The translations under genes and the position numbers were made by a program. A DNA stretch of 64,000 bases from Aplysia californica (taxonomy: Eukaryota), in assembly GCF_000002075.1 (NCBI RefSeq), contig NW_004797330.1:254911-318910 (forward strand), written 5' to 3'. Shown one piece after another: positions 36-19,100 of this stretch. The notes under the pieces were generated by a model. It saw nothing but the letters and a program-made list of their open reading frames with translations. It searched no databases and was not told the DNA's origin. The stretch's first letter is position 1. Each line of letters begins with the position of its first letter.

Positions 36-169
36 CTTTTTCAAAGGTTCCTTTCGAATATGGTTGGTGCCATTGAACTGTCTTTCCAAGTCATATGTCA
101 AGGCCAAAACTTTCAAATCTACAGCTGACAAAGAACCGTAGTCTCCTGTCTTTTTGGAAAAGGAAGTCA
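36..169 (-). CDS. NOB1: NOB1 coding exon 3
   Basis: ctcag acceptor, (V)TSFSKKTGDYGSLSAVDLKVLALTYDLERQFNGTNHIRKEPLKK, donor GTTTGT. Confidence 0.93.
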
Positions 170-3100
170 CTGAGGAAGAAATGATAAGCATAAGATTTTC
201 AACTGCAGCTGTATGGCAGTATTATTTAATATTCATTTGTAACCAGTTTTAAAGAGATATCACTCCAATACTATAATAATATGAGCACAAGGTCTAAATG
301 TCTACCATTATTCTCATTACAATGCAACTGTCTTAATCAAAACAACACTCCAGTTGGATATTCATGACATAAACACCAGAAAGTGACCCCTCTGACCCGT
401 CTATAATGTTTCTTTGCTTCACAACAAATTCAAAGAAAGAGCCACGATAATCTTTCTTATTACTGACAACTGCTAGTAAATCAGAACAAAATAGTCCTGA
501 ATCATCTTCTAACTAGATCTAAATCTAGGTTTAGAGTAAATCAATAGTAAACACGATCGTCTGATTACTTAGCTTGCTTAGAAGTTCCATAGCACCAGGT
601 AGATAGATCTAGTATAAAAAATTGTGAAAGACCTTAAATCTTAGGCTGAGAGGGTAGATCTAGACATGGATCGATTCATCAAGAAAACCCCCTAAAGGGG
701 ACATTCAAATCTTAGGCTTGGAAGGGGGGGGGGGGGGGGGGGTGTCTTGAACCAATGTAATGTTACACTTTTGTGAGCCGAAAAAATAACAAGGAAAATA
801 ATTTAAGACAAAATAAAAAAAATAAATAACACAAAAAAAGAAAATTAGCTATGCCGTGGCGATACAGTAGGTCTAGGCCTTTGAGCGGCATGCACGCATT
901 ATATGCCATCTCGCACTTTATTAAACAATGGCGGTAGATATCTACATGTAGGCCCTACTATGTAGTCTAATTTTAATCACACTACACTGGTGTGGCTAAA
1001 GTGATAAAATGACACCATTAGTTTTTCCGGAAAAGTTCCGCTTGTACCGCATTTAATTATTATGTGTGTATGCATGTTTTTCATGAATACTATGTAATGC
1101 ACATAGAACAATGATTGTAACACGGATTTGAGCAATATAAATGTCATATTATTATTATTACAGGTCGAATAATGTAATTTTACGGGATTGAGCGGGGGTT
1201 AAGTCCCAAAAAAGTATGATTATATTTGAACGGCCCCAAACCACGCTGGTGACACCTGCTCAATGTCAGGGTACACACTGTTTTTGTATGGTACACCAAG
1301 CAACCTCCAGGAAGTTTTATTTATTTTGTAGACATTCACATACTTTTAATTTTTATCTAACAAAACTCATGTTGGCTACTTTGATTGCCAAGGGCATATC
1401 AACGATATATTGCAATATTTTCATGAATTTTTTTTTTAGCTATACACGTCTTGCAACTTATGCTATTTTCAAATGCAAATTTCTCAGAGGACAGATAGCG
1501 CCAGTGTTTAATACATACTCTTTACTAATATGTATAAAACTAAAAATAGCAAACACTGAGCAACCTACAAACACATGCCCCAAATAAAAAATAAAAAACT
1601 CAGAATAACAGTTCAAACACAGAATAAAGTTTGGAACTTTAATGAATGGGATGAGGAAGATGTCATACTTTTTCAAATGATAAAAATATAAGCTTGATGA
1701 GAGCCGCTTTATAGTATCTGTCGTCATGGATCTCCAACTGGCTGATGAGTCACTCTAAATGACACATAAAACTCTGTAAAAAGTGGTGCTGTTGTTGCTA
1801 TTAGCTCAAATTCGGTTACAGTATCGACAACGCAAACAATCGCTGAATACAGTATAAATACAGACCAAAAAGCACAGCTTCTGAAGATGGTTCTTTGAAG
1901 GTCAGCTCAACTGGCAAAGTCTTGAGCCTCTGTCTTGTTGCTTTATCACAGCTTTCAGCTATCACTTCTGGCACAGTGTACACTTTCTCTCCGATGTCCT
2001 GCACAAAGAGAAAGGAAAACATTACAGCAGCAAAAAAATTTTTTTTAAAGGGTTGCAATAAGAGATTTGATGGTGCTCTTTTGTCTCGTTCAGAGTTTTT
2101 AACCTCTTCGTTACCTTAGGATGTACCTGGAAAGTCACGCAAATGCATAACTTTTGGCTTTGTGTCGTACCAAATACGTCACGGAAGTTGGCAAGATTTC
2201 CAATTCCAGGAAGCATACAAGACATTACATGTACTTCACGCTAGTCATCTGGTTCCATTTCTACTGTATGGAGTTTTAGCCACAAGTACAGTGTGGATTT
2301 TGTGCTCAGGAATTTAAAAACATGCATGCATTGATACCACATTTGCTTGTGTTACTTTACTGCTAACCTTAGAAGGGACTGATTTATAAACACAGGTATA
2401 GTCTTGCGAACGGCCGCATGCTCTCGCAAAAGGTAAACACCAAAATGACTTTAAAAAGACAGAAATGTTCTTTTACTTTACAACTTTGATTTGCAAGTTT
2501 TTCAAGATTATAGAGTAAGTAAGATGGAGAATATGGGGAATGAGGAAAGTGACACTATTGAAGACCTAGGGTCCGAAATATGTAAGGAGAGGGCTAGATC
2601 TAGACCGTGAGTCCAATAACAGAGACATGAATGATGAGACTGTTATCCTGGCAAATGAGCAAAACTGAAAATCAGTACCGACAGTAGGAATGCACACACC
2701 CTGGCAATGAAAAGGCTAAATGAAGCTACATCATGAAAAAGGGGTCGGACTAGGACTTAAATATCAAGATGCAACACTTAAGCTTTAAAATGTAAATAAG
2801 GAGGGGACACTTGAAGGATGAACAGAAAGCAGAAGATTTTGACTAAGAATTACCTGATTTATTTCATGATTGCATATATAGACCTGTCGTTAAAAAGAAA
2901 AAGATTGCCCTATTCAAATTATCATCTTATTACATAGAGAGGCTACAGCCAATAAAGAAAAAGCTGTCTTCATGAATTCTGCTAGGAAAAAAAATCTGTT
3001 ACAATCAGCATTCTACAAAAAATGACTAATGCATTGACGGGGACAATTTTACAAAATGGTATGAAAACAGAATTTACAGCCAGGCATGTATATAAACATA

Positions 3101-6100
3101 AATTCACAACAGCTCGAACAGTTTGCCATTTCCAGACAGTAATATTCTCTTTGTATTGGTAGCACATTATTCTCGACTTGAATGGTTTGAATGGACAGAT
3201 GTGTCAAACAGCTTATCTCAAAGAGCCCAATCAAATTTTCACCCTGAAAACTCTCAATATCAAACCAGCTGCGCACATAATGGAAAACATACACACCCAT
3301 CATTATTGAGAGGATCAGGTTACATGAGCGCCCCCCCCCCCCCCCAACCTTCTCACGAGCTGGCCACTTTTCCCGACCCCTGGACATGGCCAGACACATC
3401 ATGACACGTCTTGCACATGTCTCCAACATTGTTGGTGTAAAGTAATTAATAATGCTTCTAATTGGGGGTTGAATCCTGAGTTTTCATTCAGTCCGAGTTT
3501 GTTGTGTATCTGAGTTTGACTATACTTTAAGCTTCGTTGTTCAAGAAAACTATCTGACCTACTCTCCACCTTCATTTGCCCTCCTTATAATCCTTCATAA
3601 GATGGTGAAATGAAAATGGAACTTTTACCCTTGAGTTTAGGTCAACATGACAATGAAGTCACATAGTACCACAAATTGGACAAACTTCTGACAGCTACAA
3701 GTTAGGCCGGCATTATTTTACTCCTGGACCCCTCTCATACTCAGTATTTCTAAAGCACTTTTCTTGTTCATTTTTATCTGCTTTACATGAATTTTGTCTT
3801 TATATCTACCGCAAATTATTAGCAACTTAGCCCCCAAAACAGTGCATCTTCAGGCGGGTCTAAAAATTTAAAAAATATTGTTTAGGCCTATGATGATTCA
3901 AACTGGATCAGTGGAATATTAGATTCAGCATATTGAAGCCTTTTTCTGGACTACTACATTGTACCGTGTGTATGAATGTGCAGTAAAATTGATTACTGAT
4001 AGGTGCATTCCACTCCATAATTTGCTCTGAGTGAGTGATTGTGTCTTTTACATAAGCTAAATCTCAAACGTCACAAAATACAACAACGGAAAAACAAAAA
4101 CACATCCCAGTTCAGCTCAAGACACTACAGTTCACTGTCAGAGTTGTCTGAAATCTCATCAAAACTTGAGTCAGACACTGCTCAGCTTGACCATTATGTC
4201 CATTTTGTCATGGCTAGTGCAAACACACTCACATCAATAATAACCAAAGCTCAGCAGTGGATAAAAAAGAAGACTGCAGACGTGAGAGAAAGTGCAAGTG
4301 TGATGATTACAAAACAAACAAACATGAAAGATCAGTTGGATAAGCTGGTGCTGTGCTTGGTAGAAAGATTTTCTGGCACATCAGAAGATAAAGTTTTGAG
4401 GAGTGCAAGGATATTTGACTGGACAAGTGTGCCTGGAACTGACAAAATGGATGAGCTGAAAGAATATGGTGAGACACAGAAGGACGACTTGATAGCTTAT
4501 TATGAGACTGCTTCAACACCAAGGATGCTCAACACTGAAAATAAAAAAAGAGTGGCTCATGTTTCTCTCCGAAAGTCAGGGCTTACTAGGCCTACCTCTG
4601 AATGAGAACAAGACAATTTCAATCTTGAAAAAAGTATGACATTTCCTAGTCCGTCTCATTTGGCTCATATAATCTCTGTTTTGCCATCATCCACAGCCGA
4701 GGTAGAAAGGCAGTTTTCTTTGATGAGGCGCATCCTTGGTGACTGGAGGCATTCGCTTTCCAGAGATATGCTTGAAGAGATCATGCTTATATGTCCCAAT
4801 GGTCCTGGGATCAAAGAATTAAATCCAGAACCCTGCATAGCAAAGTGGCAAGGGATGTGTCTCACAAATAGATGTCCTGATAAAACAGCATTATCCTCTG
4901 AAATCATCTTCTCTAGTGATACTTTTTAAAATCACTTCAAGTTTTTTCCCATAAGGGACAAACAGTAAGCCAGTCTTTTTCCATATTGTGTCTGCCAACA
5001 TATTTTCAATATTCTGATCTAGTCATAAAATCATATGACATGCTGACTGTTTCTAAGGTCTTTTTTTATATAACATACTTTAAGACATATTTTCAAAAAT
5101 TGTTTTCACGTATCATAGTCATAACCATACTGTTTAACAACAGTTTTTAGTTCATTTTTTTTTCCATACAAGTTCATAAGTTGTTTTCACTCCTCGCTTT
5201 TTTTTAATACAAGGTCAAAATGTGTTTTCATTTAACATGATTTGTTTTTATTTTATCACTACACCGCCTGAAACCACCCTGTTTGAATCTCACTTATGAT
5301 TAATGATAACGTCTTACCCAATTGGTCAAATCATTTACTGTTTTCTATTGTGCCCTATTTCCAACAGTAGTACATTATTCATTTTAATCCAATCAATAAG
5401 GGGTAGTCATAAAGGCATTTACGTCAGATGCGACCGTGATCGAAACCTGAGTTAAAACTGTGATTTTTAGTGCTTTTGTTTTGATGAGATTTTACTGTGA
5501 TTTACTTAGTTTTCATTCATGATTTTACAAAAGTTCCAATAACTTTATACTTTTGTAGACAGTAAGAATAAATTGTATTGTTATAAACGTTGAGATGCAC
5601 GATTCAGCATTAGCAACTCTAATCAACAAAATGATCACCTATAATTTTTGCCTTGGTGCCCTAGCAAATTGCCTCGGTGCCCTCTGATTTTTAGGCCACA
5701 TCGAGGCAATTTTTTCCCTCCCTCCAGAACATCTAATTCAAGTCCTGAGATATCAACACAACAATAAAAATAAAAAAGAGAAGATGGAGATATCTGGGAC
5801 ATGTTATGAGAATGCCGAAGACGAGATAGCCCTATCAGTATCAGACATGGCTATGGAAATCAACTGAAAAGAAAAAGCGGGGAAGACCAACTGGAAGTTA
5901 TAGAAGCACAATAAGGAGGCAATCACCCAGGGCTTCTAAAGATGTCTGAAATTGGAGAAAGTGGCTGCGGATAGACAAGCTTGGCTTCGACTGCTCTCAG
6001 CCTTGTCATGTGCCAGATGGTATAGGGAGAGAGTAAGAACATCATTAGCCTCAGAGAGGATAGCAGCTGAGAGGTGTGAAGTTTTGACCACTTGCCTTGT

Positions 6101-7202
6101 GACAGCTTGCCACATGCAACTAAACGTAGAACGACGCAAACTCTTCTTAGATAAGGCGGCCATCTTGTATGACGTCAGACCAGGATACCCCATCAATCAC
6201 ATGACTACATTTATAAGTAGCCGCATGGCACCAAAGATCATGTAGAGAATCTTTGATGGCATGACGCTTTGGTGCGATGTTTTTCCAGGAATACCGACAA
6301 TGTGATATTGATATCACATTATGATGATGCGGCTGCTTTGATGATGCTGCTGCTAATCTCTTCTGCGCATTTTTAAAATCGCACCTGGGGGGGGGGGGGG
6401 GGGTAATCTTCCGGCATCTTTACCCTGGCAACAATAATTTAAAGACACTCACACACACATATATAAACAATAGCATGATAAGTCGCGAGCAGGGCCGATG
6501 GGATTGCAATTATGCAAATGAGCTCTCGTGCGCATCTCTAGCCCTCCATTGTACTTTGCCGGACCAGGAGTAGTCCTAGGCCAAGCCAGCAGAGTTGCGA
6601 GCAAATAAGAATAGTGGACCACGTGATTAGATTGACCAATTAGCCTCAAGGTGTCAGGGTCATGGGTCAAAGGGCACAGTGGCACGGTCGTGATGACTGA
6701 AAAACCCGGTAAGAGACGTCAGTCGATTGCTGGCAGTTGAAGAGTGAGGATGTAGAAAACTGAGTAGGAGAGTGAGTAGGGGAGCTCGGAAACGAAGAAC
6801 AGCGGGCCACTAGGCACTAGGGGCGCCACAGCGAAAGTAGTTCCGACCGGTGGTCCGGTAAAGTACAATCTTACCGAATCTAATCTAGATTCTAGATCTA
6901 GATCTAGACCTTTTCTACAACTAGATCTAATCTAGATCTTCTAGTAGAATCTAAATCCTCTGACTTTGACGCCTCAACCTAACAACAGGACAGGACAGGC
7001 ACAGGCAGTCACACTCAGTCAGTCACAGGAGGCAGAAGTCAAGACATAGATTAGATTAGTTTTGACGTCGAAGTAAGACAGATAGAGTAAAGATTACCAC
7101 CGGTCTTCACGTATACTAAACATTCAGAATACGTACTCGTAAAGGAGCATTACGTATGAAAGCCCCAGCATCAGCGACAACGTGCTGAATCTTCGATGCC
7201 AT
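36..7202 (-). CDS. NOB1: RNA-binding protein NOB1 (18S rRNA PIN endonuclease), coding exons 1-3; gene continues left of the window
   Basis: Exons 7202-7137, 1998-1866 and 169-36 join via GT-AG in phase: MASKIQHVVADAGAFIRNAPLR/DIGEKVYTVPEVIAESCDKATRQRLKTLPVELTFKEPSSEAVLF/VTSFSKKTGDYGSLSAVDLKVLALTYDLE..., the NOB1 PIN domain (HVVADAGAF, KKTGDYxSLSxxD). Confidence 0.95.
697..1237. mobile_element. MITE, probably PIF/Harbinger type, in NOB1 intron 2
   Basis: TIRs GGGGACATTCAAAT (697) and ATTTGAACGGCCCC (ends 1237), 12/14 match, flanked by AAA on both sides. Confidence 0.55.
1866..1998 (-). CDS. NOB1: NOB1 coding exon 2
   Basis: tgcag acceptor, DIGEKVYTVPEV...FKEPSSEAVLF, donor GTCTGT, 133 nt. 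Confidence 0.92.
4039..5747 (+). mobile_element. Decayed hAT transposon (transposase C-terminal part and right end) in NOB1 intron 1
   Basis: ORF 4636-4929 LAHIISVLPSSTAEVERQFSLMRRILGDWRHSLS is the hAT C-terminal dimerisation motif; the upstream ORF 4039-4605 is separated from it by a stop; subterminal repeats tgcct(t/c)ggtgccct at about 5650-5685 and a CCTG end at 5747. Confidence 0.8.
5780..5995 (+). mobile_element. RTE-clade LINE 3' fragment
   Basis: Translates as RWRYLGHVMRMP ... KRGRP ... ADRQAW, typical RTE C-terminus, frameshifted. Confidence 0.6.
7137..7202 (-). CDS. NOB1: NOB1 coding exon 1
   Basis: ATG at 7202-7200, MASKIQHVVADAGAFIRNAPLR, donor GTACGT. Confidence 0.93.
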
Positions 7203-7224
7203 CTTGAAGATGAACGATGGATGG

Positions 7225-8517
7225 TAAGCATGGGCGAAGTCAAGTCGAGATTCGGAATTCGGCGAATTCGTGGGGTCTGAGTCGGAGATCGAACATTGGG
7301 CAGGAGGACGAGTCCGAACACGAATTCCCGAACTAGGGCAGCCAAGGGGAAAATAGATCACGAGGAGCGAAAACATATTTAATTTGTTAAAAACTGTGAA
7401 TAATTTTACGCAAAACTGCACCCAAGAAACATTTTTGAACGCTCAAAAGTTAGATTTGAATGAATAAAAATGCATAAGTTTGAAAAGTATCATAAAACAC
7501 GATGTCTTATTTCTATTTTCCCCTCGCTGTGTTCAGAAGGAAGCAGCGAGTTCGAATTGGACCGTCCCACGATTCCATCGACTCAATGAAAGTCACATGA
7601 GCTTTTAGAACGCGCTGATTCGCTAGCAGTTACAAATCCCTTCTGCTGGTGGTTATGCCCTAAGAGGCCAAGGTCAAATTTACGCACTACGGTGACGGAC
7701 GAGCATTGCGTCTCTGATTGCACCAATCACAATTGCAAGCCATCTTCACGTCAAATTCAAATCCCGTGATTATCCCAGCCTCCTTCTTTCTTTGGCTTTC
7801 ACTACGATCACACACATTTCACTACTTTTCTCCTCTTCATTGTACTATCTACATGTATTTTCTTACGACCTGTCTGGCACTTACATTTACATTGTCACAT
7901 TTCTCGTCTCTTTTGCATTACTCCATGTTTGTTTTCAACCTTGTATGTTTCATCTTGTCATAATAAATGTTGATTATGATATAAATCTAGATCTAGATCT
8001 ATTACTGTTATTTTTTATAGACTTCTGTCTTGCTGACTGTTGCTTTGATTTGCATGGTCTGACTTTAGAGTTCGAGACTGCGGGATTTTATGCTTTGATT
8101 TTTATTATGACCTGTTTGCATCCATTATCCTCGCACATGAATGCGGCTGTACTGTCAACGAGGGGCAAATAACTTTCAAAACAAACTGGTGCCCTCCCCT
8201 GATGTCAATGAAAACATTGCCTGCCTCAATCCCGACCTCTGTGACCTCTTCCCTGCTCCTTCCCCCTCCCCCCTCCCCGCCCCCTTTGTCTACACTGGTC
8301 CGTGGAGTCGGGATTCTCTACAGCGTGTTCGACTCGACGGATGTAGGGAGAACGACTTGACTTGACACGAATCCCACCGAATTGACCTTGCCTCTCCTCA
8401 AATTTGATTGGCTGCTATCTTGACCTGAATTCGAATTCGGAGTCGAAGTCGACGAATTCGCGCCCAAAAATGTTCGGAGTCGAAAGTTCGGAAGTTCTCG
8501 GAGTCGGCCCACCCTTA
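7225..8517. mobile_element. Non-autonomous hAT-type element inserted in the NOB1 5' leader
   Basis: Perfect 8-bp TSD ATGGATGG at 7217-7224 and 8518-8525; imperfect TIRs TAAGCATGGGC and TAAGGGTGGGC (reverse complement); subterminal TTCGGA/GAATTCG clusters at both ends. Confidence 0.85.
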
Positions 8518-8525
8518 ATGGATGG

Positions 8526-8560
8526 TGAAATGAAAGCGGAAGTAATGAGAGAATCTTATC
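8526..8560 (-). promoter_or_regulatory. Probable original NOB1 core promoter / 5'UTR
   Basis: ETS-like GCGGAAGT at about 8536-8543; removing the insertion gives ...ACTTCCGCTTTCATTTCACCATCCATCGTTCATCTTCAAG-ATG on the minus strand. Confidence 0.5.
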
Positions 8561-10125
8561 TGTAGAAATCCAATGTTATTGGTAACAAAGGAACTCTTTA
8601 CGATCAATGTTTAAAAAGATATGCAAAATTATTGTTGAAATAGTACTCGCACAGTTGTTCAAATATACTTACTGTAACCGCTATAGGTTACCTGATTTTT
8701 ACAAGGCCTAATAAATCTAGAAGCCCAATTAATTAGTAGGCCTACGATTTTTTTTTTAAAATTCGCAATTTCTTAATCTATGGTATTAGTTGTGTGCTCG
8801 TGATAATTAATTTTGTCAAATACTCAAACCCTAAATGTTGAGAAAAGCAAGAAAAGATACGTAACGTACATATAGGGGCTACGGTACAAAGACTATGTAT
8901 TCTGCACCCGGAGTTTTTATGTTTTAGGGCTGCAAATAAAGAAACGCTTGAAAAAAAAATAGATGTACTCATCGATAGAGCTAAGTAGTAAGAGTATTCG
9001 TAGATGTAATTAATGAGGGACAATTGCGCAGCCCAACCTATGGACAAGAGCAAGCAACCGGCGGTCTAGCATTTTTTCTCTCTGTCAACACTTGAGAACA
9101 TACTGCAGACTTTAATTCACATTCCATGAAATCGGAAATGGAAATTACTTATAATTACCCAACAAGTGGTATCTAAATCGGGACAACTGGACGTAGAGAA
9201 AAATTTTATAGAAAAGTCCAACAAACTCGAATCGAACTATAATAACTAGATCTATGTTAACGAACTATTCAACGTCAAAACCCTTGACTTTCGAATCTAA
9301 TGCTGTTCGAATATTATATTATATTACGCGCGGTGACCGTAGTGGACTCGCCGTCATCCTTTAGAATAAACATTAACCCACTTTAAAAGAAGCAAAGAAA
9401 CAAAATAAAAAATCCTCTGAACAAATTAAAAAAAAAATCAAACAAACAATATATACCAACCAAGACAAAATTATCAGTAAATTAGTTAATAATTTGAACG
9501 TCCTTCTCATGTCTCAAAAAATGCAAGGTCTCTGCGTCTATAAAAAGATCAAACTTTTTCTATTTTTTCTACCATTCTCATTTTTAAGACCCATACAGAA
9601 TATTTGTGTGAGCCTACGTGTGTGACTGTGTGATCNNNNNNNNNNNNNNNNNNNNNNNNNNNNNNNNNNNNNNNNNNNNNNNNNNNNNNNNNNNNNNNNN
9701 NNNNNNNNNNNNNNNNNNNNNNNNNNNNNNNNNNNNNNNNNNNNNNNNNNNNNNNNNNNNNNNNNNNNNNNNNNNNNNNNNNNNNNNNNNNNAAATGTCC
9801 TCTGCCGCGCTGCTTCGAATGCTGTCAATAATTTGTCAATGTTTCAAACATAGACTCTATATTACCCTTGGCTTCTTTGTTATGCTTTAGGCAAGATATT
9901 GCCACAGGTCCACGCACCCTTTAAACAATTTTATCCCCCACCCTGTGGTAAACAACCATTAGAAAAAGGGAAAAAATATTCGTAAACATTAGCCTGCATT
10001 GTTGCAGCATTTCATCGCCAAATTCGTGCCATTGGGAAATTACTATTGGAACGATGATTGTGAATGGATTCTGAATGCATTGATGCTTTGGCAGTTCATG
10101 TATTCATCACACGGAACCCGACAAA

Positions 10126-10128
10126 ATG
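10126..10128 (+). CDS. VPS35: VPS35 probable exon 1 (ATG only)
   Basis: ACAAAATG|GTGGGT: good invertebrate start context and donor; exon 2 starts in phase 0 at Pro2. Confidence 0.55.
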
Positions 10129-13100
10129 GTGGGTGTTTCCCCTGGTCTTGTGATCCTTGGATTAATGTGATTGAAAATAGACTGGCAGTTAAAATTATTT
10201 TGCACAAATTTAAAATGTTTTGCTGTTATGGACCGAAATCAGTGTTATATAGAGTCTAGTTGTTTGATTTGGAACGTTTCAGATCAGAGTACAGCAATTT
10301 TACCAAGTGAATCATGTTGTGGTGTTGTCGGTGTTTCTCCCCCACCCCTGTCCTGGCCCTGGGGCCTGTGGGCTTGATTTACACACAGACTAGGCTATAC
10401 ACTGTTGTAGTATAGTAACCTAGAAGATGTTGAAGTGTACTGTAGTTGTAGTACTAAGAAGTGTAGTGATGGAGTGTAGATCTAGATCTAGATCTAGATC
10501 ATGTAGTAAGTCGAAGTGACTATTCATTCGGACTCAAGTCCGAATAGAGAAAAATTATATTCGGCATTCGGACTCTGAATTGAGTCCAGCATGACGTCCG
10601 TTCCGACTTCCGATCCGTGTGTGAAGGTGGTGGGGCTGGCCTAGGGAAGTATGATGGAGAAAGAAAAAGTTTTTAGTAAGAGAAAGAGAGAGGAAAAGTA
10701 AGAGGGGAGGGGGGGGGGGGGGCGTCTTATAATAAGGACTGATTATGAATTTTATGTTTTGATCCCTTTGTAGTCGTGAAACACAGTGTAATAGCCTACA
10801 AATAGTTTAAAGTCCGAATAGCAACGGGAGACTATTTGGACTCGAGTATAGACCTTCTTACGGTACAACCGGCGCACGCGCACTGGAAATTGAGTCAGAA
10901 TAGCCTCCAGCGGCTGTTCGGAATTGAGTCAGAATAGCCTCCAGCGGCTGTTCGGAATCGAGTCCGAATAGCCTCTTCGTATTCTCACCCGGATGTGAAT
11001 AACCACTTCCAATTCCAAAATGTTATAAACACCCTGGAAACCTTGTAACCAATCAGTAGATCAGCAAGTGTGAAATTTTATCAAGCGAAACACATCGATA
11101 CGGATACGTCAAGCCACTGACCCAACATGTCGTCCATGCAGTATTTCCAAAGATTCTCTCCTCTATACCATCTTTGGTATCTCCATGGCCTTCAAAAAAT
11201 AGTCTGTGGGTATCCCATAGATGACATCACATTACTAAAATTAGCCGCCAATCAGGCAGGTGGGTCGTTCTACGTTTAGCTGCATATATATGTGTGTTGA
11301 GCAGTATACACTAGATCCTTCCTTTAGTTGTAGACTTTTAATAGTAGGTTCAACACCCCTTGCCTTGCAAAAATAAAGGTTAATAAGCTGTGCAGGTGTG
11401 AGGCTGTATGGGTAGCTCATTCATATACATATAGTAGTTTTATAGCCTGATGCTCTCAATTCTCAACTCTAGATAATGATGGGCATGTTTAGTTTTCCAC
11501 TGTGTGCGAAAGATGATTTCTGATTTGATTTCGAGACAGTTAATCGTAAAGTTATATTGGGACTAATCCAGTTTTGGCCCCAAAGATTAATATACTACCC
11601 CACTATCTGACAAGGAAGTTGCTATTTTAACCCCAGGTGAGATAAAAATACGATCGACCTCTCATCCCAGATGAGACTTGCCAGTGTTGGCTATTCTCAC
11701 CCGGTGCGAAACAAGACCTGTTTTTCTTAATTTCTGAATGCTGTCTATCGGTGTGAGTGAATGATCAAATTGACAAAAACAGTGAAAAAAAATGATGCTA
11801 TAGAGCACAAAAGTTAGATGCTACGGCTATTTCACTTTTATTGAATGGAGCCGAACTACGCCGGTCGCCATTTTGTATGCCCGGAAGTTCTCGCTACTCC
11901 TTCTCTTCCTTTCTCTCTCTCTTTCCCTTTCTCTTTCTCCCCCCCCCCCCCCATGCATCTTTCTCACTGTCCGCAGACAAAATTGCATGATTTCAAAACG
12001 AGCGCTGGTATGTTTGTTTAAACTGGTATCATAGTGAACGCACACTGGGTGAGAATAGTCAGAAGGTCTCATCCCGGGTGAGAGGCCTACAACTACAACT
12101 GCGCTATTCTCACCCCCGGCTGAGAATAAAGGTGGCCAATCCTGCCTCTACCCCCAGCCCTAACCCATAAATATAAAGTTGCTTTTTATTTTTCCTACTC
12201 GATTATTACTATTGGGGCCAAAACTGGAGATTGCCTCAAATTTGATCAGGCTTGTGGAGACAGTTTTTAAATTTTATTTTTGGTAAGTGTTTACGGCGCT
12301 CGCAACTGCATGAGGTCATATGAGCGCGCGGGACACATTTAACTTTTTCAGTTGGTAGGGAATTTTGAATTTTGCATAGGTGGCAGCCGAAACCTACTCT
12401 TATAGATTTTAGACCTCCTGAAGTGACTATCTTTAACGTGCGCAACTTGCACACAAGACCTCCAAGATTTTTCGCCAGAGAACGCTAGGTGTAGATCTTT
12501 CCTACCAGAAGAAATCAGGGGTGTGGCTGAAAGACAAGAGTAAGAAGGAGTCAAGGAGTAGCAGTAGAAAGGCTAGAAAGAGTCAGGAGCCCAGAGGAGG
12601 TCGTAGAGGGGGTGGGGGCAGGAAGAGGAGACAAAAGCAGATAACAGAACATTGCTAGAGAGCGGGAAAGGAGGTGAAAGGAGACATTTTTGGAGAAGAA
12701 ATTTTTTTTTTTCAGTCGCTACCCGGATTCGAACCCGGGACCTTTGAATGAGAGTCCAACACCTTTACCTGGTGTTTTTATTTTTGAATGAGCTGACTGT
12801 CAATGTAAGTTGAGGACCTGGATCACATGTAAAAATGGTGGAGAGTTATTTAACATAATGAGAGGTAGCCATGTGATTGACAGTAGGGTAAGTAGTAAAA
12901 ATTTCTCAAAGTTGGCCATGTTATTTTCGTAGCAGTTTAAGTGTTTTTAGTGATGATGTTCATTTGAATCATAGATGCATGCAGAAATCTACACGGTTTA
13001 GAAACTGTGTTTGTCTCTCACTATTTGTGCTAACATTTTATTGCAATTCTGACCCACAAGACTAAAGTTGGTATCATAGTACTCCTTTGTTTTTCATTAA

Positions 13101-16100
13101 TTTTTACTGTTTTTCCTCCCGTACACCAGCCGAGCACACCTCAGTTGTCACCGCAGGAGGAGCAGGAGAAGTTGCTGGAGGAGGCTCTTGGTGTAGTGAA
13201 GACACAGGCATTTCAGATGAAAAGATGTCTGGTGAGTGAATTTACTTCAGACAGATCGTGGCTTGGAATTTGGAGCCCGGTCTATACTTTGCATTTATTA
13301 GATATATTGTGGACTGGTTTCTTCTATTTGTTGCACGAGGAAAATCCTGTGGAAGAATTGGGCTCGATTTAGTCCGCATATTTTTCCTTAAAATCTTTTC
13401 ATGGGAAACTTAGCCTATCTATAATAGACTTACAAAGATAATGATGATCTGATATTTTAATGTGTGGTTCAGTGAGGGTACTTAATTTCTGTTGACATTT
13501 ATTATTTTCAGGACAAAGGTCGGTTGATGGATGGTCTAAAGCATGCTTCCACAATGTTGGGAGAGCTAAGAACATCTCTGCTGTCTCCTAAGAGCTACTA
13601 TGAATGCTGTATCCTTTATTTGAAATAGAATGGATAACATTTATATTCCATTTTTTGTTTATCTCCATGGAGNNNNNNNNNNNNNNNNNNNNNNNNNNNN
13701 NNNNNNNNNNNNNNNNNNNNNNNNNNNNNNNNNNNNNNNNNNNNNNNNNNNNNNNNNNNNNNNNNNNNNNNNNNNNNNNNNNNNNNNNNNNNNNNNNNNN
13801 NNNTTGTTGAATACTGCAAATGTGTTGAAAAATGATAGTCCTGTCAAAACATGTGCATTGGTTTTTGATTTTGCTACATCAAAACTGACTTCCACTTTGG
13901 ACATAAATCATGTCTGTCATTGGGCAAGAACTATAAAAATGAACTGACTGTGAATAACGTAGAAAGCATAATATTATGCTGTTGTTGCCTGAGTAAACTT
14001 AGGATTCTAGAGGTTGCTTAAATAAGCATCCTACATCTTGTTCTTTGGACCCTGTGACTCTTGTTTCTTTTATTACTTTGTCTATGACTTTAATTTTGTT
14101 TTGGATTTTGTTCCTCTTGATTTGCAAACGGATGTTAACATCATGTAGTGTGCTGTGTGCTGTGTGCTGTATTTTTTTAACCAACACCAGACATGGCCAT
14201 CTCAGATGAGCTGCGTCACCTGGAGATGTACCTTGTTGATGAGTTTCAGAAAGGACGCAAGGTCGCTGATCTTTATGAGCTTGTGCAGTATGCTGGCAAT
14301 ATTGTGCCTCGCCTGTGAGTGTGTTATATTTTTTTGCAGCTTAAAATTGATACAGAAGTAGTAAATGGGCAGTTAATGTTTTTTGGTCAGGGCATTAATG
14401 TCAAGCAGCTTTGCGGGCCAAGGGCTTCTGTGAGGCTTTTAAGATGTATGTTATCTGTTGTGTATGGGGAGTGTTGATTCTTTGCATATAAATGAACAGA
14501 AATGTTCTAATTTTCCATACTTAAGATGGTTGTGGTTACCACTCAAGAGTTGCTTGATCAGCAGGAAGGCTCTTACATGTGTCTACCTTTGATTACAAAC
14601 ATGTGGATACTTACTAAGGTATCGTATCCAAACAAAAAGTATCCCTGTGCCACAAGTTTGTCTGTTGAATGCATATGTCTGCTAAAGATATATTGTGACC
14701 ACATCATTCCCCTACCATATGTCTGGTTCAAAGATATGTACCAACCAAAGCTGTTAAAGTACTTTTAAAAAGGTACTTTAGTACAAATTTAAGTACAATG
14801 TAAAAAAGTTTACTTAAGTACATTTTAAGTACTTTCCTGTAAAATGTACTTGAGTACAAGTACTTTTTAAAAGAGTACTTATGATTACATTTTGAGTACT
14901 TTCTGCTAATATGCTAAATCACTTCAGTGCAAATATGCAAAACATCATATTGAATAACAGATCCAGTATATTTGACAAATTAGACCATTTATTACTAAAA
15001 ATGTATACAGTTTACAAAGCATTTGAATATATACACTGAACATATGTGTAAATGGTACATAACATTGAAAAAACCCCAACACCCTCTGCATCTATTTTTA
15101 AAAACACGAAAAATATGTCACACTTCAGGAAAGCTTAAGAAATATAGAATCTATTGGCTAGGTCTGAAAGACCGTCTAATTCCCTTTCTATTGGTATGTA
15201 ATATGTCTATCAGAAACAGATAGATTATTGCAGGAGGCTCGAGAGCAAAAAGTCAAGATATGAAATTTCCAGATTCTAGGGCAATAACTAGGAATTGAGG
15301 GATGTACTAGAATGGCTTTCATTTCTTTATTTTCCTACAGAATGGTGTATCTTTGACACATAATATGCAGAACTGAATGCACTTTTCCATGAAATAATTG
15401 TAAACTCTAAATTCTCACTTTTTTCCCCATTCTTTGTGACTGTAGGAAAAGGGTGATTTCTGTTTTTATTTCTATTTTTAGAAACAAGAAAAAAAGGTCT
15501 CACTTCAAGACAGCTTGACAAAAATAAAATCTATTGGCTACGTCTGAAAGACCGTCCAATTCCCTTCCCATTGATATATTATAATATGTCTATCTGGAGT
15601 AGATAGATTATTGCATGAGGCTTGAGGGTATGGAGGACCCCTGAAACATAAATAAAAAGCCAAAATAGGCAAAACTGCTGGGAGCAATGCAAAAGTTACT
15701 TTTTTTAAAAAGTTAAAAAGAAATTTAGGTAGCCTAAAAAATTGTTAGATCTACATTGAGAACTCAGTTTCAGTTGATTATAGTGGTAAGTGAAGACATT
15801 GTGGTCTGCTGTAATTGCAAGCAAATTCGCAAAACATCATTGTACTTGTACTATAGTGCAGTCAAAAATTCGTGGCTCAACTTATTGTCAAATATCTCCT
15901 CAACTATCGAACATAGCTTCTCCTATTTTTGCCCAATGACTTGTATTAATTTGTCTTAACAGATCTACATTTTTGTAAACACCTGCTAGCTGTATTCTAG
16001 AAAATTCCTTAATAAATACATGTAGTAATAAAAAATCCAAGTGGGTGGTTGCTACAGATTTTTAAATGTTTACATCTGAGGCAATATTACTTTTAATAAC

Positions 16101-19100
16101 AAGTCTGTCATGTTTTTCTAATCGGGACATTATGCTTATTGAACACATGTTTTGAGAACCATTAGTGCAAAAAATGTGTTCTCTATAAAATTAATTTCTT
16201 GTAACACGTTTTTCCACAAAAAATTGTCATTGATGAGCTGTGACATAGGCCATATGCGTAATCAAAATGTGTGAGAAGCGGTAAGTGCTGGGAACAATCC
16301 CATTTTACGTGTGACAGATATTTGAAGTATTTTATATAAATTTATGAAGAAAAGTTTTTAAATCGAGCCTCAATTGTTCTGGAAAAATTTGATCAAGTTA
16401 AGACAAATTGATAAAAACTGCTGTCCAAAGTATGGATGACATTGATGAACCTGTTAAAGAGATATTTGAGAATAAGTTGCTTCACGAATTTTTTGACCGC
16501 ACTGTAGGGAATGCACCCTTTTGGTAAGGCTAGGCCTAGGGACTGGGGAAAAGAAAGAAAACACGACAACACTAGGCCAGATTTTGGTCACACTATGTGG
16601 CCCGCTGCGCCCACAGCAAACCAGAATAGTTTCATGGAGTCTAGTGAGTGTAGTGTAACCAAAGATTCTCTTCTACCAGTAGAGAGTCTTTGGTGTAACA
16701 AGCCAATGGCAACGTATTACTAAAGACCAAAGGGGCGTGCGTTTAATTTGCTTCAGGGCCACAAAAACAAGGGCTGTTTCTCTAAATAAGCTGAACTCTG
16801 CAAAAAATAACGAAGTCGAAAATCAATGCGAAATTCTTTCTGTTTGCCGGCACTTACCCTTTCATTAAGCCTCAAAAGTACTCAAAATGTCCTTAAAAAA
16901 TACTCAAAAGTACTTTTATAGAAAGTATCGAAGTAGAGTAAAGTACTGGTTCTCAAAAATGTACCAGAGTACAGTAAAAGTACCGAAAATTGTAACGTAA
17001 GTACCAGTACCGGAGTTACAACAAGCCCTGGTACCAGCATTGTTTAACATAATATGGTATGTTAAGTTTTTGAAATGGCTCTGTGAACCCGTGGCATATT
17101 CCTTAATGTGAACGATGGAGCATGGCCAATGAAATCTCAAATCTGCACTGAATTGACCACTTTGAGAATCTTTTTCTGACACTGTTAATATACTTTAGTG
17201 TCAGTTGTTGTGATGGACATGTGGTCACAACATAGTTTGTAGAGTTAAGTTAGAGAGCATTTTGGAAAAATACAGATGTTGCGGAGGATTACAAACATTC
17301 AATTTGTGGGACTGAAATCTATGCAATTTGCATTACAGAAGTCTGCAACTTTTACAGATGAAAATGAAAAAAAAAAAATGCTGGGCATGCCAAGGAGGTG
17401 CTTCCCCTGAAATGTGATACATCTAAGACTAGATTGTGTGTAGATGTCTACAATAGCTCGTCATTTTGTTCATTTTAAAACAGGTATCTACTGATTACAG
17501 TTGGCACAGTATACATAAAATCCAATGAATTGTCACGGAAAGACATTCTGAAGGACTTGGTCGAAATGTGCAGAGGTGTGCAGCATCCGTTGCGTGGGCT
17601 CTTTTTGCGCAACTATCTCCTGCAGTGTACTAAGAATGTTCTGCCCGACTCCCATGAAGATCAAAGGTATGTTGCAAAGTCAGAAATGAGGGTTTTTCTG
17701 TAGATAAACCTTCTCGCAGCGGGCTTTGAAATTACTCGTTGTCTTATTTTGTTCTTATTCTTGAAAGAAACCAAAAGTTTAGAAGATCATCATCCTAGAA
17801 TGTTCAATGTCACCCTATTAAGTTTTTTTTTTTTTAAACCAATGATTGACAGTGCAAGTGCAAAATTAGAAAAATATTATATATAGATATATATCTACAA
17901 ATTTTGCTTGTGTTCAAAGGAACAGGATATTCTAAATTTTTTATTTTATAGTTACTTTTTGTTTTAACTTGATATCCTTTCATGTTGATATTAATGCGTT
18001 TTGCTTTAGACTGTCTAACATCAAATCAGCAATTGTTATTCAACTCCTACTTGACTTTAAAGCAGAGGCAGCGAGAGAAGCAAGAAAATAAAAACAGTCA
18101 AATCTTGACATTGGCCCAACAAACCACAAGTGCTCTGTTTAAGATTATTCTCAAACAGAATAGCCCTTTAAGTGAAGCCATAAGAAGGCATTAACCGACT
18201 AACAGCCTGTTTAAGAAGATAAGCACACTACTTTAAGAATAAGAAATACGTTGCTATCTGTGGTGAATTGTGGCGTCTGTGGTCATTACAAATTGCTTGT
18301 GATTCTTTCCTTTATTTTACTCTCTTTACCATGCTCATTTCATGATGGACGAACTATTAGGATTATTATTATTATTGCTCGACTGTAAGGCATTGCAGCA
18401 AAAAGATATTTGTACGTGCATTTTATGATCAGAAAGAATAAAACTGGAAGAATTATTTATAGAATAAGGTTCCGTTCAAACTGCTGGCAATATGTACTGG
18501 ACATCTTTGAAAGAAATTAAGTATCATCTTTTATTATTGAACTATATAATTTAGTGAATAAGTTATTCAGAAACAAATTAGGGGCAGTGTTGGCAATGAA
18601 GTATGAACTGTATTCAAAGAACTTGCAACATGTTTCAATGTACAAAATATTTATAACTCATGCTTTTAGCCGGTGGAAGTGGAGGATCTACTGGTATGAA
18701 CAACTTCTCGTTATGCATTTTTGAAGTTTTGTATAAACATTTTACTAGTATAAAACATTGTTAAATAACATAATTACCGGTATTTCGCCCCCTTTCTTTT
18801 TTGGGGTTGAGATAAATGATATTTGTGGATTGTAACTGTAACATTTTATTTTTCTCACTAATTTTTAATGAAATAACAGTTACTCTAAGCTCTTTTTTTC
18901 ACGATTTGTTTCTGTATATTAATCAGGATAACAGCTATAATGAGGGAAACAAACATAATGTAATAGGCATTTGCTGTTATGTCAAAAATGGAATTATGGC
19001 ATAATTATGAGATGAAATTGGGCTGCTTTGATCATATTTCCACCACTTGACAGTGCAGAGTTTGAATAAAGGTAGGGAATGGGATGTGATATATCACAGG

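What the first reader, a model, noticed from the sequence alone, without database searches (positions are those of the whole stretch)
7217..8525. 1.3-kb hAT-type element inserted between the NOB1 start codon and its promoter
Seen: a perfect 8-bp duplication (ATGGATGG) flanks a 1293-bp element with imperfect TIRs, and the left copy lies 14 nt upstream of the NOB1 ATG. Deleting the element rebuilds a compact leader with an ETS-like site about 30 nt from the ATG. Known: 8-bp TSDs are typical of hAT elements and NOB1 is essential for 18S rRNA maturation. Inference: the gene tolerates this by using a promoter in the element (CCAAT and YY1-like GCCATCTT at about 7715-7747), by splicing it out, or this allele or copy is impaired.
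Basis: partly seen in the sequence, partly recalled or inferred. Interest (0 to 1): 0.75.

Follow-up and report, generated by a model that had tools for sequence, protein, structure and literature searches.

The report
Transposon beside sea hare NOB1 start
A 1.3-kb non-coding DNA transposon sits 22 bases upstream of the start codon of the ribosome-maturation gene NOB1 in a sea hare genome; this is an ordinary kind of insertion in an unusually tight spot, and how the gene copes with it is untested.

Summary
Observation confirmed. The window is Aplysia californica: NOB1 exon 2 is 100% identical to its NCBI protein. NOB1 lies on the minus strand, head to head with VPS35. ATGGATGG flanks 7225-8517 (1293 bp) exactly and the termini match 9/11. 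TTCG/CGAA subterminal motifs reach the window maximum at both ends, which 0 of 18,251 random end pairs matched.

Caveats: the duplication is (ATGG)2, so a 4-bp TSD fits equally well. There is no transposase relic and no second copy in the window. Genome-wide copies and the empty allele could not be searched.

NOB1 coding sequence is not decaying. Its ATG sits in the TISU/YY1 core AAGATGGC, which in humans marks very short leaders. The insertion is therefore probably at the transcription start, and starts close to the gene most likely persist. The proposed promoter at 7715-7747 is unlikely (10 upstream ATGs). A segregating weak allele or Ds1-like splicing remain open. NCBI's model starts translation inside the element (+58 aa), but such extensions are common in NOB1 annotations.

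A second hAT-type element lies upstream of COX4's first coding exon, and hATs are known to favour start sites. Verdict: new member of a known kind, interest 0.3.

The parts
7217..7224 (.). Left target-site duplication copy, ATGGATGG = (ATGG)2; 8 bp, or 4 bp if only the inner unit was duplicated
8518..8525 (.). Right target-site duplication copy
7225..8517 (.). 1293-bp non-autonomous DNA transposon, hAT-type ends, no coding relic
7225..7235 (+). Gene-side imperfect TIR (9/11); carries an out-of-frame ATG in weak context at 7231 on the NOB1 strand
8507..8517 (-). Promoter-side imperfect TIR; carries a possible donor AGG|gtgggc at 8512 on the NOB1 strand
7236..7344 (.). Gene-side subterminal region with TTCG/CGAA repeats, CpG-rich (o/e 1.42 over 7225-7374); possible acceptors at 7332 and 7276
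8398..8506 (.). Promoter-side subterminal region with TTCG/CGAA repeats (CpG o/e 1.47 over 8381-8517)
7203..7376 (-). Stop-free 58-codon frame from ATG 7376 inside the element, in frame with NOB1; used as the N-terminus in the NCBI protein model P0003
7716..7746 (.). CCAAT (7723-7727) and GCCATCTT/AAGATGGC (7739-7746) inside the element; no evidence of function
7137..7202 (-). NOB1 exon 1 coding part (MASKIQ...PLR); ATG within the TISU/YY1 core AAGATGGC at 7205-7198
1866..1998 (-). NOB1 exon 2 (PIN domain)
36..169 (-). NOB1 exon 3 (PIN domain); the gene continues beyond the window start
8526..8582 (-). Displaced native upstream sequence: ETS-like ACTTCCG 8543-8537, CCAAT boxes at 8570 (+) and 8578-8582 (-); promoter role inferred
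55076..55680 (.). Internal control: a second hAT-type element (589 bp, 55084-55672; unambiguous 8-bp TSD CAACCTAC; TIR 10/11 starting TAGGGCTGG) upstream of the first coding exon of COX4

Best explanation
What it is (about 0.9 for a DNA transposon, about 0.8 for hAT-type): a non-autonomous cut-and-paste element, moved in trans by a transposase encoded elsewhere, that landed in the open chromatin at the NOB1 transcription start.

How the gene most likely copes (committed, 0.45). Step 1, shown: the NOB1 ATG lies in the core AAGATGGC and stays on the gene side of the insertion with 22 nt of host sequence. Step 2, known in human, inferred for Aplysia: this core (TISU/YY1) sits +5 to +30 from the start site, with a median leader of 12 nt. 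The ancestral start was therefore at or within a few bases of the insertion point, and the element separates it from the upstream ETS and CCAAT sites rather than sitting deep in a 5'UTR. Step 3, inferred: initiation persists near the ATG, in the 22 host nt or in the CpG-rich gene-side 150 nt of the element, which replaces the displaced upstream DNA. Step 4, shown by sequence: starts downstream of 7231 give a leader with no upstream ATG; starts up to 7295 add one weak out-of-frame ATG; starts just above 7376 meet an in-frame ATG. NOB1 is therefore probably made without splicing the element, perhaps at an altered level.
For: Element anatomy.
TISU core and its +5 to +30 position with a 12-nt median leader: PMC2518114, section 5 read and passages. 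A YY1/Kozak motif about 10 bp after the start site in a sponge: PMC4773876, passage.
Start context looks conserved: of 8 other NOB1 annotations extended upstream, 7 have K or N just before the conserved Met and 6 read K/N-M-A, i.e. AAN-ATG-GC (inferred from protein).
Native Met confirmed: Plakobranchus NOB1 also starts MASKIQ, and 111 of 120 NOB1 proteins have the first catalytic Asp at position 10-15.
Gene not decaying: full PIN and Zn-ribbon domains. In a 22-row tree Aplysia's path from the heterobranch ancestor is 0.41 against 0.43-0.61 for seven relatives. Only one A. californica NOB1 appears among the best 120 listed of 417 hits. NOB1 and VPS35 carry consecutive locus tags in Bradybaena, so this is probably the ancestral locus.
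Read-through from the old promoter would carry 25 upstream ATGs and an AATAAA at 8106.
hAT preference for start sites and open chromatin: PMC3499496 passages; PMC9881132 section 25. A second such element lies in this window.
Against: There are no transcript, CAGE, read or population data, so every step on expression is inference. TISU is characterised in mammals, and 6 of the 7 AAGATGGC cores in this window are not at known starts. The NCBI model runs the reading frame 152 nt into the element; if RNA-seq drove that, leaders are longer than a TISU-type start predicts. Intact coding sequence says nothing about a recent insertion. No second copy was found (window only). The TSD fits the Ac-family nTnnnnAn preference at one of two positions and does not fit the Buster nnnTAnnn preference (PMC-library preprint 10.1101/2022.09.16.508221).
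Confidence: 0.45

Rival explanations
1. Recent, still segregating insertion: the assembled haplotype carries a weak or null NOB1 allele that survives because the other chromosome has the empty site. The NCBI 58-aa extension would then be an artefact: reads from empty alleles stop at the TSD and the model extends to the next in-frame ATG.
For: The TSD is perfect. The element displaces ETS and CCAAT sites by 1.3 kb. A maize hAT in a first exon makes a hypomorphic allele through a uORF (PMC9881132, abstract and section 19). Upstream-extended NOB1 models occur in 8 other entries of 120.
Against: TIRs differ at 2 of 11 positions and no close copy lies in the window, which does not suggest a very recent burst, though imperfect TIRs are common in hATs. 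No genotype data either way.
Confidence: 0.25
2. Ds1-like splicing: transcription still starts at the native ETS promoter. A donor 5 nt inside the promoter-side TIR (8512) joins an acceptor in the gene-side end (7276 or 7332), removing up to 1236 of 1293 nt and leaving one or two upstream ATGs that ribosomes scan past.
For: Donor AGG|gtgggc scores 5.5 on a matrix from 18 donors in this window; 6 of the 18 native donors score lower in leave-one-out, and 2 VPS35 introns use gtggg donors. Acceptors 7332 (6.9) and 7276 (5.7) are within the native range. Ds1 offers donors within 35 nt of one end and acceptors within 24 nt of the other (PMC5432752, passages).
Against: Sites this good occur by chance at 3.3 donors and 3.1 acceptors per kb of VPS35 intron. 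Four internal donors score higher than 8512. The host AG just before the ATG scores -2.9, so clean removal is unlikely. The NCBI model reads contiguously through 7376-7203. The matrix is small.
Confidence: 0.15
3. One reading: a promoter inside the element at about 7715-7747 drives NOB1.
For: An AAGATGGC core on the NOB1 strand is present (about 0.03 expected per 1293 nt from base composition). The region keeps its CpGs (o/e 1.03).
Against: The motif is 4-5 times over-represented window-wide (7 against 1.6 expected), mostly away from starts. CCAAT lies 12 nt downstream of it on the NOB1 strand. The leader would be about 540 nt with 10 upstream ATGs, 7 of them before the in-frame one.
Confidence: 0.07
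4. Not a hAT. Either another DNA-transposon superfamily with a 4-bp TSD (ATGG) that inserted into an existing (ATGG)n run, or a MULE-type element, or, least likely, chance repeats around unique upstream DNA. This concerns identity and is independent of the expression models.
For: TSD holds at k=4 as well as k=8. MULEs also make 8-10 bp TSDs and have subterminal repeats (PMC5225508, passages). There is no transposase to classify. TSD plus TIR alone is near chance.
Against: The short TIR fits hAT (10-25 bp, PMC8961557), not the >100-bp TIRs typical of MULEs; the terminal 120 nt align only loosely (score 43-45). Ginger (4-bp TSD) begins TGTNR and is excluded. The termini resemble those of the second element, which has an unambiguous 8-bp TSD. 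The subterminal test argues against chance.
Confidence: 0.15

Closest known systems
Non-autonomous hAT elements (maize Ds/Ds1; hobo, Hermes and Tol2 type ends)
   Same: 8-bp TSD, short imperfect TIR, short subterminal repeats within about 100-200 bp of each end, no coding capacity (tested).
   Different: No autonomous partner identified. TSD is 4/8 ambiguous. At 1.3 kb it is longer than a typical MITE (size range recalled).
Maize BTA hAT insertion in ZmSWEET4c (PMC9881132; abstract and sections 19 and 25 read)
   Same: Non-autonomous hAT with perfect 8-bp TSD and imperfect TIR at the 5' end of a gene; supplies new ATGs and uORFs; family prefers open chromatin.
   Different: BTA is 156 bp, lies in coding sequence, and is shown to be active and to cut translation. 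Here the element is 1293 bp, upstream of the ATG, and no effect is measured.
Ds1 splicing and exonization (PMC5432752; passages read)
   Same: Possible donor near one end and acceptors near the other on the host gene's strand.
   Different: Ds1 sites are supported by RT-PCR; here they are predictions at background strength.
TISU/YY1 short-leader promoters (PMC2518114; abstract, section 5 and passages read)
   Same: NOB1's ATG lies in the invariant core AAGATGGC, and RNA-processing genes are enriched in this class.
   Different: Characterised in human cells; no start-site data for Aplysia.

Membership tests
hAT superfamily, non-autonomous | 8-bp target-site duplication | tested here: inconclusive
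   Exact 8-bp repeat, but (ATGG)2 also fits 4 bp
hAT superfamily, non-autonomous | Short TIR of 10-25 bp | tested here: met
   9/11 imperfect; criterion from PMC8961557
hAT superfamily, non-autonomous | Short subterminal repeats near both ends | tested here: met
   TTCG/CGAA 9 and 9 per terminal 120 nt; 0 of 18,251 random end pairs reach this; criterion
hAT superfamily, non-autonomous | Terminal (C/T)A(A/G)NG pattern (recalled, from no call) | tested here: inconclusive
   Right end TAAGG fits; left end TAAGC misses the fifth base
hAT superfamily, non-autonomous | Ends shared with an autonomous hAT; dispersed copies with different TSDs; empty orthologous site | not testable with these tools
   Only the 64-kb window was available as DNA of this organism; no copy in it; no convincing TIR-plus-TSD pair found around the intronic hAT relic
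hAT superfamily, autonomous | Transposase ORF, 2.5-5 kb length | tested here: not met
   1293 bp; 0 Pfam matches in 37 of 37 stop-free frames of at least 25 aa
MULE | TIR typically over 100 bp | tested here: not met
   12 of the first 30 nt match; only a loose gapped alignment over 120 nt; criterion from PMC5225508, where 2 of 14 families have shorter TIRs
Ginger (4-bp TSD) | TGTNR termini | tested here: not met
   Termini begin TAAG; criterion from PMC2836005
Academ or Sola (3-4 bp TSD; recalled) | Superfamily terminal patterns and TSD preference | not tested
   Defining papers not held
TISU promoter class | Core AAGATGGC at the start codon | tested here: met
   7205-7198 minus; criterion
TISU promoter class | Motif at +5 to +30 from the mapped start site; YY1 binding | not testable with these tools
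   No start-site or binding data

The most novel reading that the evidence does not exclude
The element is fixed in A. californica and has been taken over by an essential gene. Its gene-side end is now the NOB1 promoter and first exon, and an ATG inside it (7376, A at -3) adds a 58-residue, transposon-derived N-terminus that runs through the TIR and TSD into the 18S rRNA nuclease, as the NCBI model says. Or its TIR carries a built-in donor, so that a whole family of such elements can sit in leaders of housekeeping genes as self-made introns.
Probability: 0.12. Interest if true: 0.6.

Novelty: new member of a known kind. Interest (0 to 1): 0.3.

Why it matters
It is a compact, testable case of how an essential, apparently single-copy gene with a very short leader tolerates a 1.3-kb transposon at its start. 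The options (start-site persistence, splicing, weak allele) predict different 5' ends.

It also flags a likely annotation error: the public A. californica NOB1 protein begins with 58 residues of transposon sequence that matched no other NOB1 examined.

The general phenomenon is known: hATs favour start sites and can alter translation. A specialist would find this a good example rather than a surprise.

Tried and rejected
NOB1 decay: ESCD in place of human EIRD looked like damage. It is shared by 7 of the 11 other heterobranch and caenogastropod rows (Plakobranchus, Bradybaena, Physella, Elysia, Littorina, Pomacea, Batillaria), so this was rejected.

VPS35 start formed by the TSD: VPS35 needs a first exon ending ATG|GT, and the left TSD plus the element end reads ATG|GTAAGC at 7221 (score 6.4). 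Rejected as less likely than ATG|GTGGGT at 10126 (7.6), because the empty site would score 0.8 and overlap NOB1 exon 1.

Other copies through proteins: the 80-aa frame 7203-7442 against 1.84 billion representatives gave 1 hit, P0129, a repeat protein scoring at most 4.4 bits per repeat, which is an artefact of summed repeats. No hit among the best 120 of 417 covered the extension except P0003 itself.

Intronic hAT relic (4039-4929) as the partner: no matching ends found. Related TTCGGA/GAGTCCGAA motifs in the VPS35 5' region: no boundaries found. Rfam: 0 matches at gathering scores over the window.

One search had one NOB1 acceptor off by a base; scores were recomputed and those are the ones quoted for the element. 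The plus-strand ATG|GT donor scores come, whose donor set was unaffected.

Literature: 'Aplysia' + 'NOB1' gave 4 papers and 'Aplysia californica' + hAT + transposon + target site duplication gave 5 (4 listed). By title and abstract start, none describes this locus. This library lacks most subscription journals and repeat databases, so prior description is not excluded. Supplements were not examined.

Left unchecked: members of the P0003 protein cluster, the metagenome and viral contig collections (closed), and any Aplysia genome, read or transcript data. The prokaryotic genome, phage and plasmid collections and the sigma-70 scan were not used because they do not apply. No structure was predicted.

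Full report
Setting. NOB1 exon 2 (1998-1867, minus) is 100% identical to the NCBI protein RNA-binding protein NOB1 of Aplysia californica (P0003). It matches human NOB1 in the PDB and Pfam PIN_6. Exons 1-3 are in the window (7202-7137, 1998-1866, 169-36) with GT-AG introns. VPS35 lies head to head on the plus strand: 16 coding segments map residues 2-798 of the A. californica protein P0011. COX4 lies on the minus strand near 50-54 kb. NOB1 and VPS35 have consecutive locus tags in Bradybaena, so this is probably the ancestral locus.

Observation. ATGGATGG at 7217-7224 and 8518-8525 encloses 1293 bp, and the left copy is 14 nt from the ATG. The termini match 9 of 11. This alone is weak: 11 of 8,689 8-mer pairs in the window pass the same filter, and 29 of 60 shuffles give at least one hit, 4 of 60 with a YAR start. 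The subterminal motifs decide it. TTCG/CGAA occurs 9 times in each terminal 120 nt, the maximum among 3,070 bins (mean 0.51), and 8 times in the inner 1053 nt. In a motif-agnostic version, 0 of 18,251 random end pairs reach the element's value. Only 2 of 8,211 repeat-flanked segments combine a 9/11 terminal match with an end-to-end alignment score of at least 40. One caveat is new: the duplication is (ATGG)2 and holds for 4 as well as 8 bp.

Identity. An 8-bp TSD, a 10-25 bp TIR and short subterminal repeats are hAT features (PMC8961557, passages; bioRxiv 10.1101/2022.09.16.508221, passages). The element has no Pfam match in 37 of 37 frames and no Rfam match, so it is non-autonomous. No second copy lies in the window, and no other DNA of this organism was available, so dispersed copies, a partner transposase and the empty site are untested. 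MULE-type long TIRs and Ginger termini are not met. Academ and Sola could not be checked. I call it hAT-type at about 0.8 and a DNA transposon at about 0.9.

Context. A relaxed scan for hAT-like ends returned 5 pairs, of which 2 have perfect 8-bp duplications: this element and a 589-bp element at 55084-55672 with 10/11 TIRs. The second lies upstream of COX4's first coding exon, probably in a 5'UTR intron (inferred). NOB1 intron 1 holds a broken hAT transposase (Dimer_Tnp_hAT, E 4.5e-7). Related TTCGGA/GAGTCCGAA motifs cluster at 10500-11000. hATs integrate preferentially near start sites and in open chromatin (PMC3499496, passages; PMC9881132, section 25). Landing near a housekeeping promoter is expected; only the tightness of this site is notable.

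Is the gene impaired? Not over the long term. The NCBI model has full PIN and zinc-ribbon domains. The odd-looking ESCD motif is a gastropod trait. In a tree of 22 named rows chosen from the 120 proteins (unnamed and partial rows and most vertebrates left out; Aplysia without its 58-aa extension), Aplysia's path from the heterobranch ancestor is 0.41 against 0.43-0.61 for seven relatives. That Nob1 is required for final 18S maturation in yeast I saw only in an abstract listing (PMC3326319). A recent weak allele would leave no trace in these tests.

How it may be expressed. Unspliced read-through from the old promoter would carry 25 upstream ATGs and an AATAAA at 8106, so it is unlikely to make protein. 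Splicing from a donor in the far TIR (8512) to acceptors at 7332 or 7276 has precedent in Ds1 (PMC5432752, passages). It would leave 57 nt of element and one weak ATG if 7276 is used. The sites, however, are at background strength, about 3 per kb.

The NOB1 ATG itself lies in AAGATGGC, the invariant core of TISU. In human genes this core lies +5 to +30 from the start site, binds YY1 and gives a median leader of 12 nt (PMC2518114). A similar motif lies about 10 bp after starts in a sponge (PMC4773876). In 7 of 8 other upstream-extended NOB1 annotations the residue before the conserved Met is K or N, which suggests this context is old in NOB1. The insertion point is 14-22 nt from the ATG, so it is at the start site. 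The YY1-like element stays with the gene and the adjoining element end is CpG-rich (o/e 1.42 against 0.57 for the window). Local initiation may therefore persist while the ETS and CCAAT sites are pushed 1.3 kb away. All of this is inference; I put it at 0.45, against 0.25 for a segregating weak allele, 0.15 for splicing and 0.07 for the internal promoter.

The annotated extension. P0003 starts at ATG 7376 inside the element and reads 58 codons through the subterminal repeats, TIR and TSD into MASKIQ. It could mean transcripts include the element's end. But 8 other entries among 120 have unrelated upstream extensions, 111 start within 10-15 residues of the first catalytic Asp, and the extension has no credible relative. 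It is more likely a modelling artefact than a new domain. It remains the boldest reading the evidence allows (0.12).

Novelty and score. I found no paper on this locus in two searches (listings only), but the library is partial and holds no repeat database. hAT insertions at gene starts that add uORFs are documented (PMC9881132). The feature is real and well bounded, and its effect is easy to test, but it is a new member of a known kind. Interest 0.3.

Noticed in passing
window 55076-55680: Second hAT-type non-autonomous element (589 bp, TSD CAACCTAC, TIR 10/11) upstream of the first coding exon of COX4, probably in its 5'UTR intron.
   Followed up: partly
window 4039-4929 (+): Broken hAT transposase (two ORFs, the second matching Dimer_Tnp_hAT) inside NOB1 intron 1, antisense to NOB1; its ends were not found.
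   Followed up: partly
window 10500-12130: Repeat-rich stretch in the VPS35 5' region with TTCGGA/GAGTCCGAA motifs like the element's ends, a 34-bp tandem repeat at 10888-10975, CTATTCTCACCC-type repeats, and GCCATTTT and CGGAAGT motifs near 11870; probably nested transposon remains, boundaries not found.
   Followed up: partly
window 10126-10134 (+): Best candidate for the VPS35 start, a first exon ending in ATG followed by a GT donor; a 157-nt N gap at 9636-9792 could hide another.
   Followed up: partly
window 1946-1954 (-), NOB1 exon 2: ESCD replaces the EIRD/EIKD seen in human, bivalve and abalone NOB1, in 8 of 12 heterobranch and caenogastropod rows, with ESID in 3 pulmonates: a lineage-specific change beside a conserved acidic residue of the PIN domain.
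   Followed up: partly
window 6878-6939, 7986-8001, 10477-10500, 54583: (TAGATC)n runs recur near the 5' ends of NOB1, VPS35 and COX4 and once inside the element; other short runs lie at 655, 2595 and about 47460.
   Followed up: no
window 57000-61300 (+): Frameshifted non-LTR retrotransposon with endonuclease (Exo_endo_phos_2) and a weak reverse-transcriptase match.
   Followed up: no
window 14730-16970 and 48957-54155: Further inverted-repeat structures: AAAAGTAC-rich repeats in a VPS35 intron, and a pair of inverted segments with the window's highest end-alignment score (87).
   Followed up: no
window 62896-63056: 18-bp tandem repeat, 9.4 copies.
   Followed up: no
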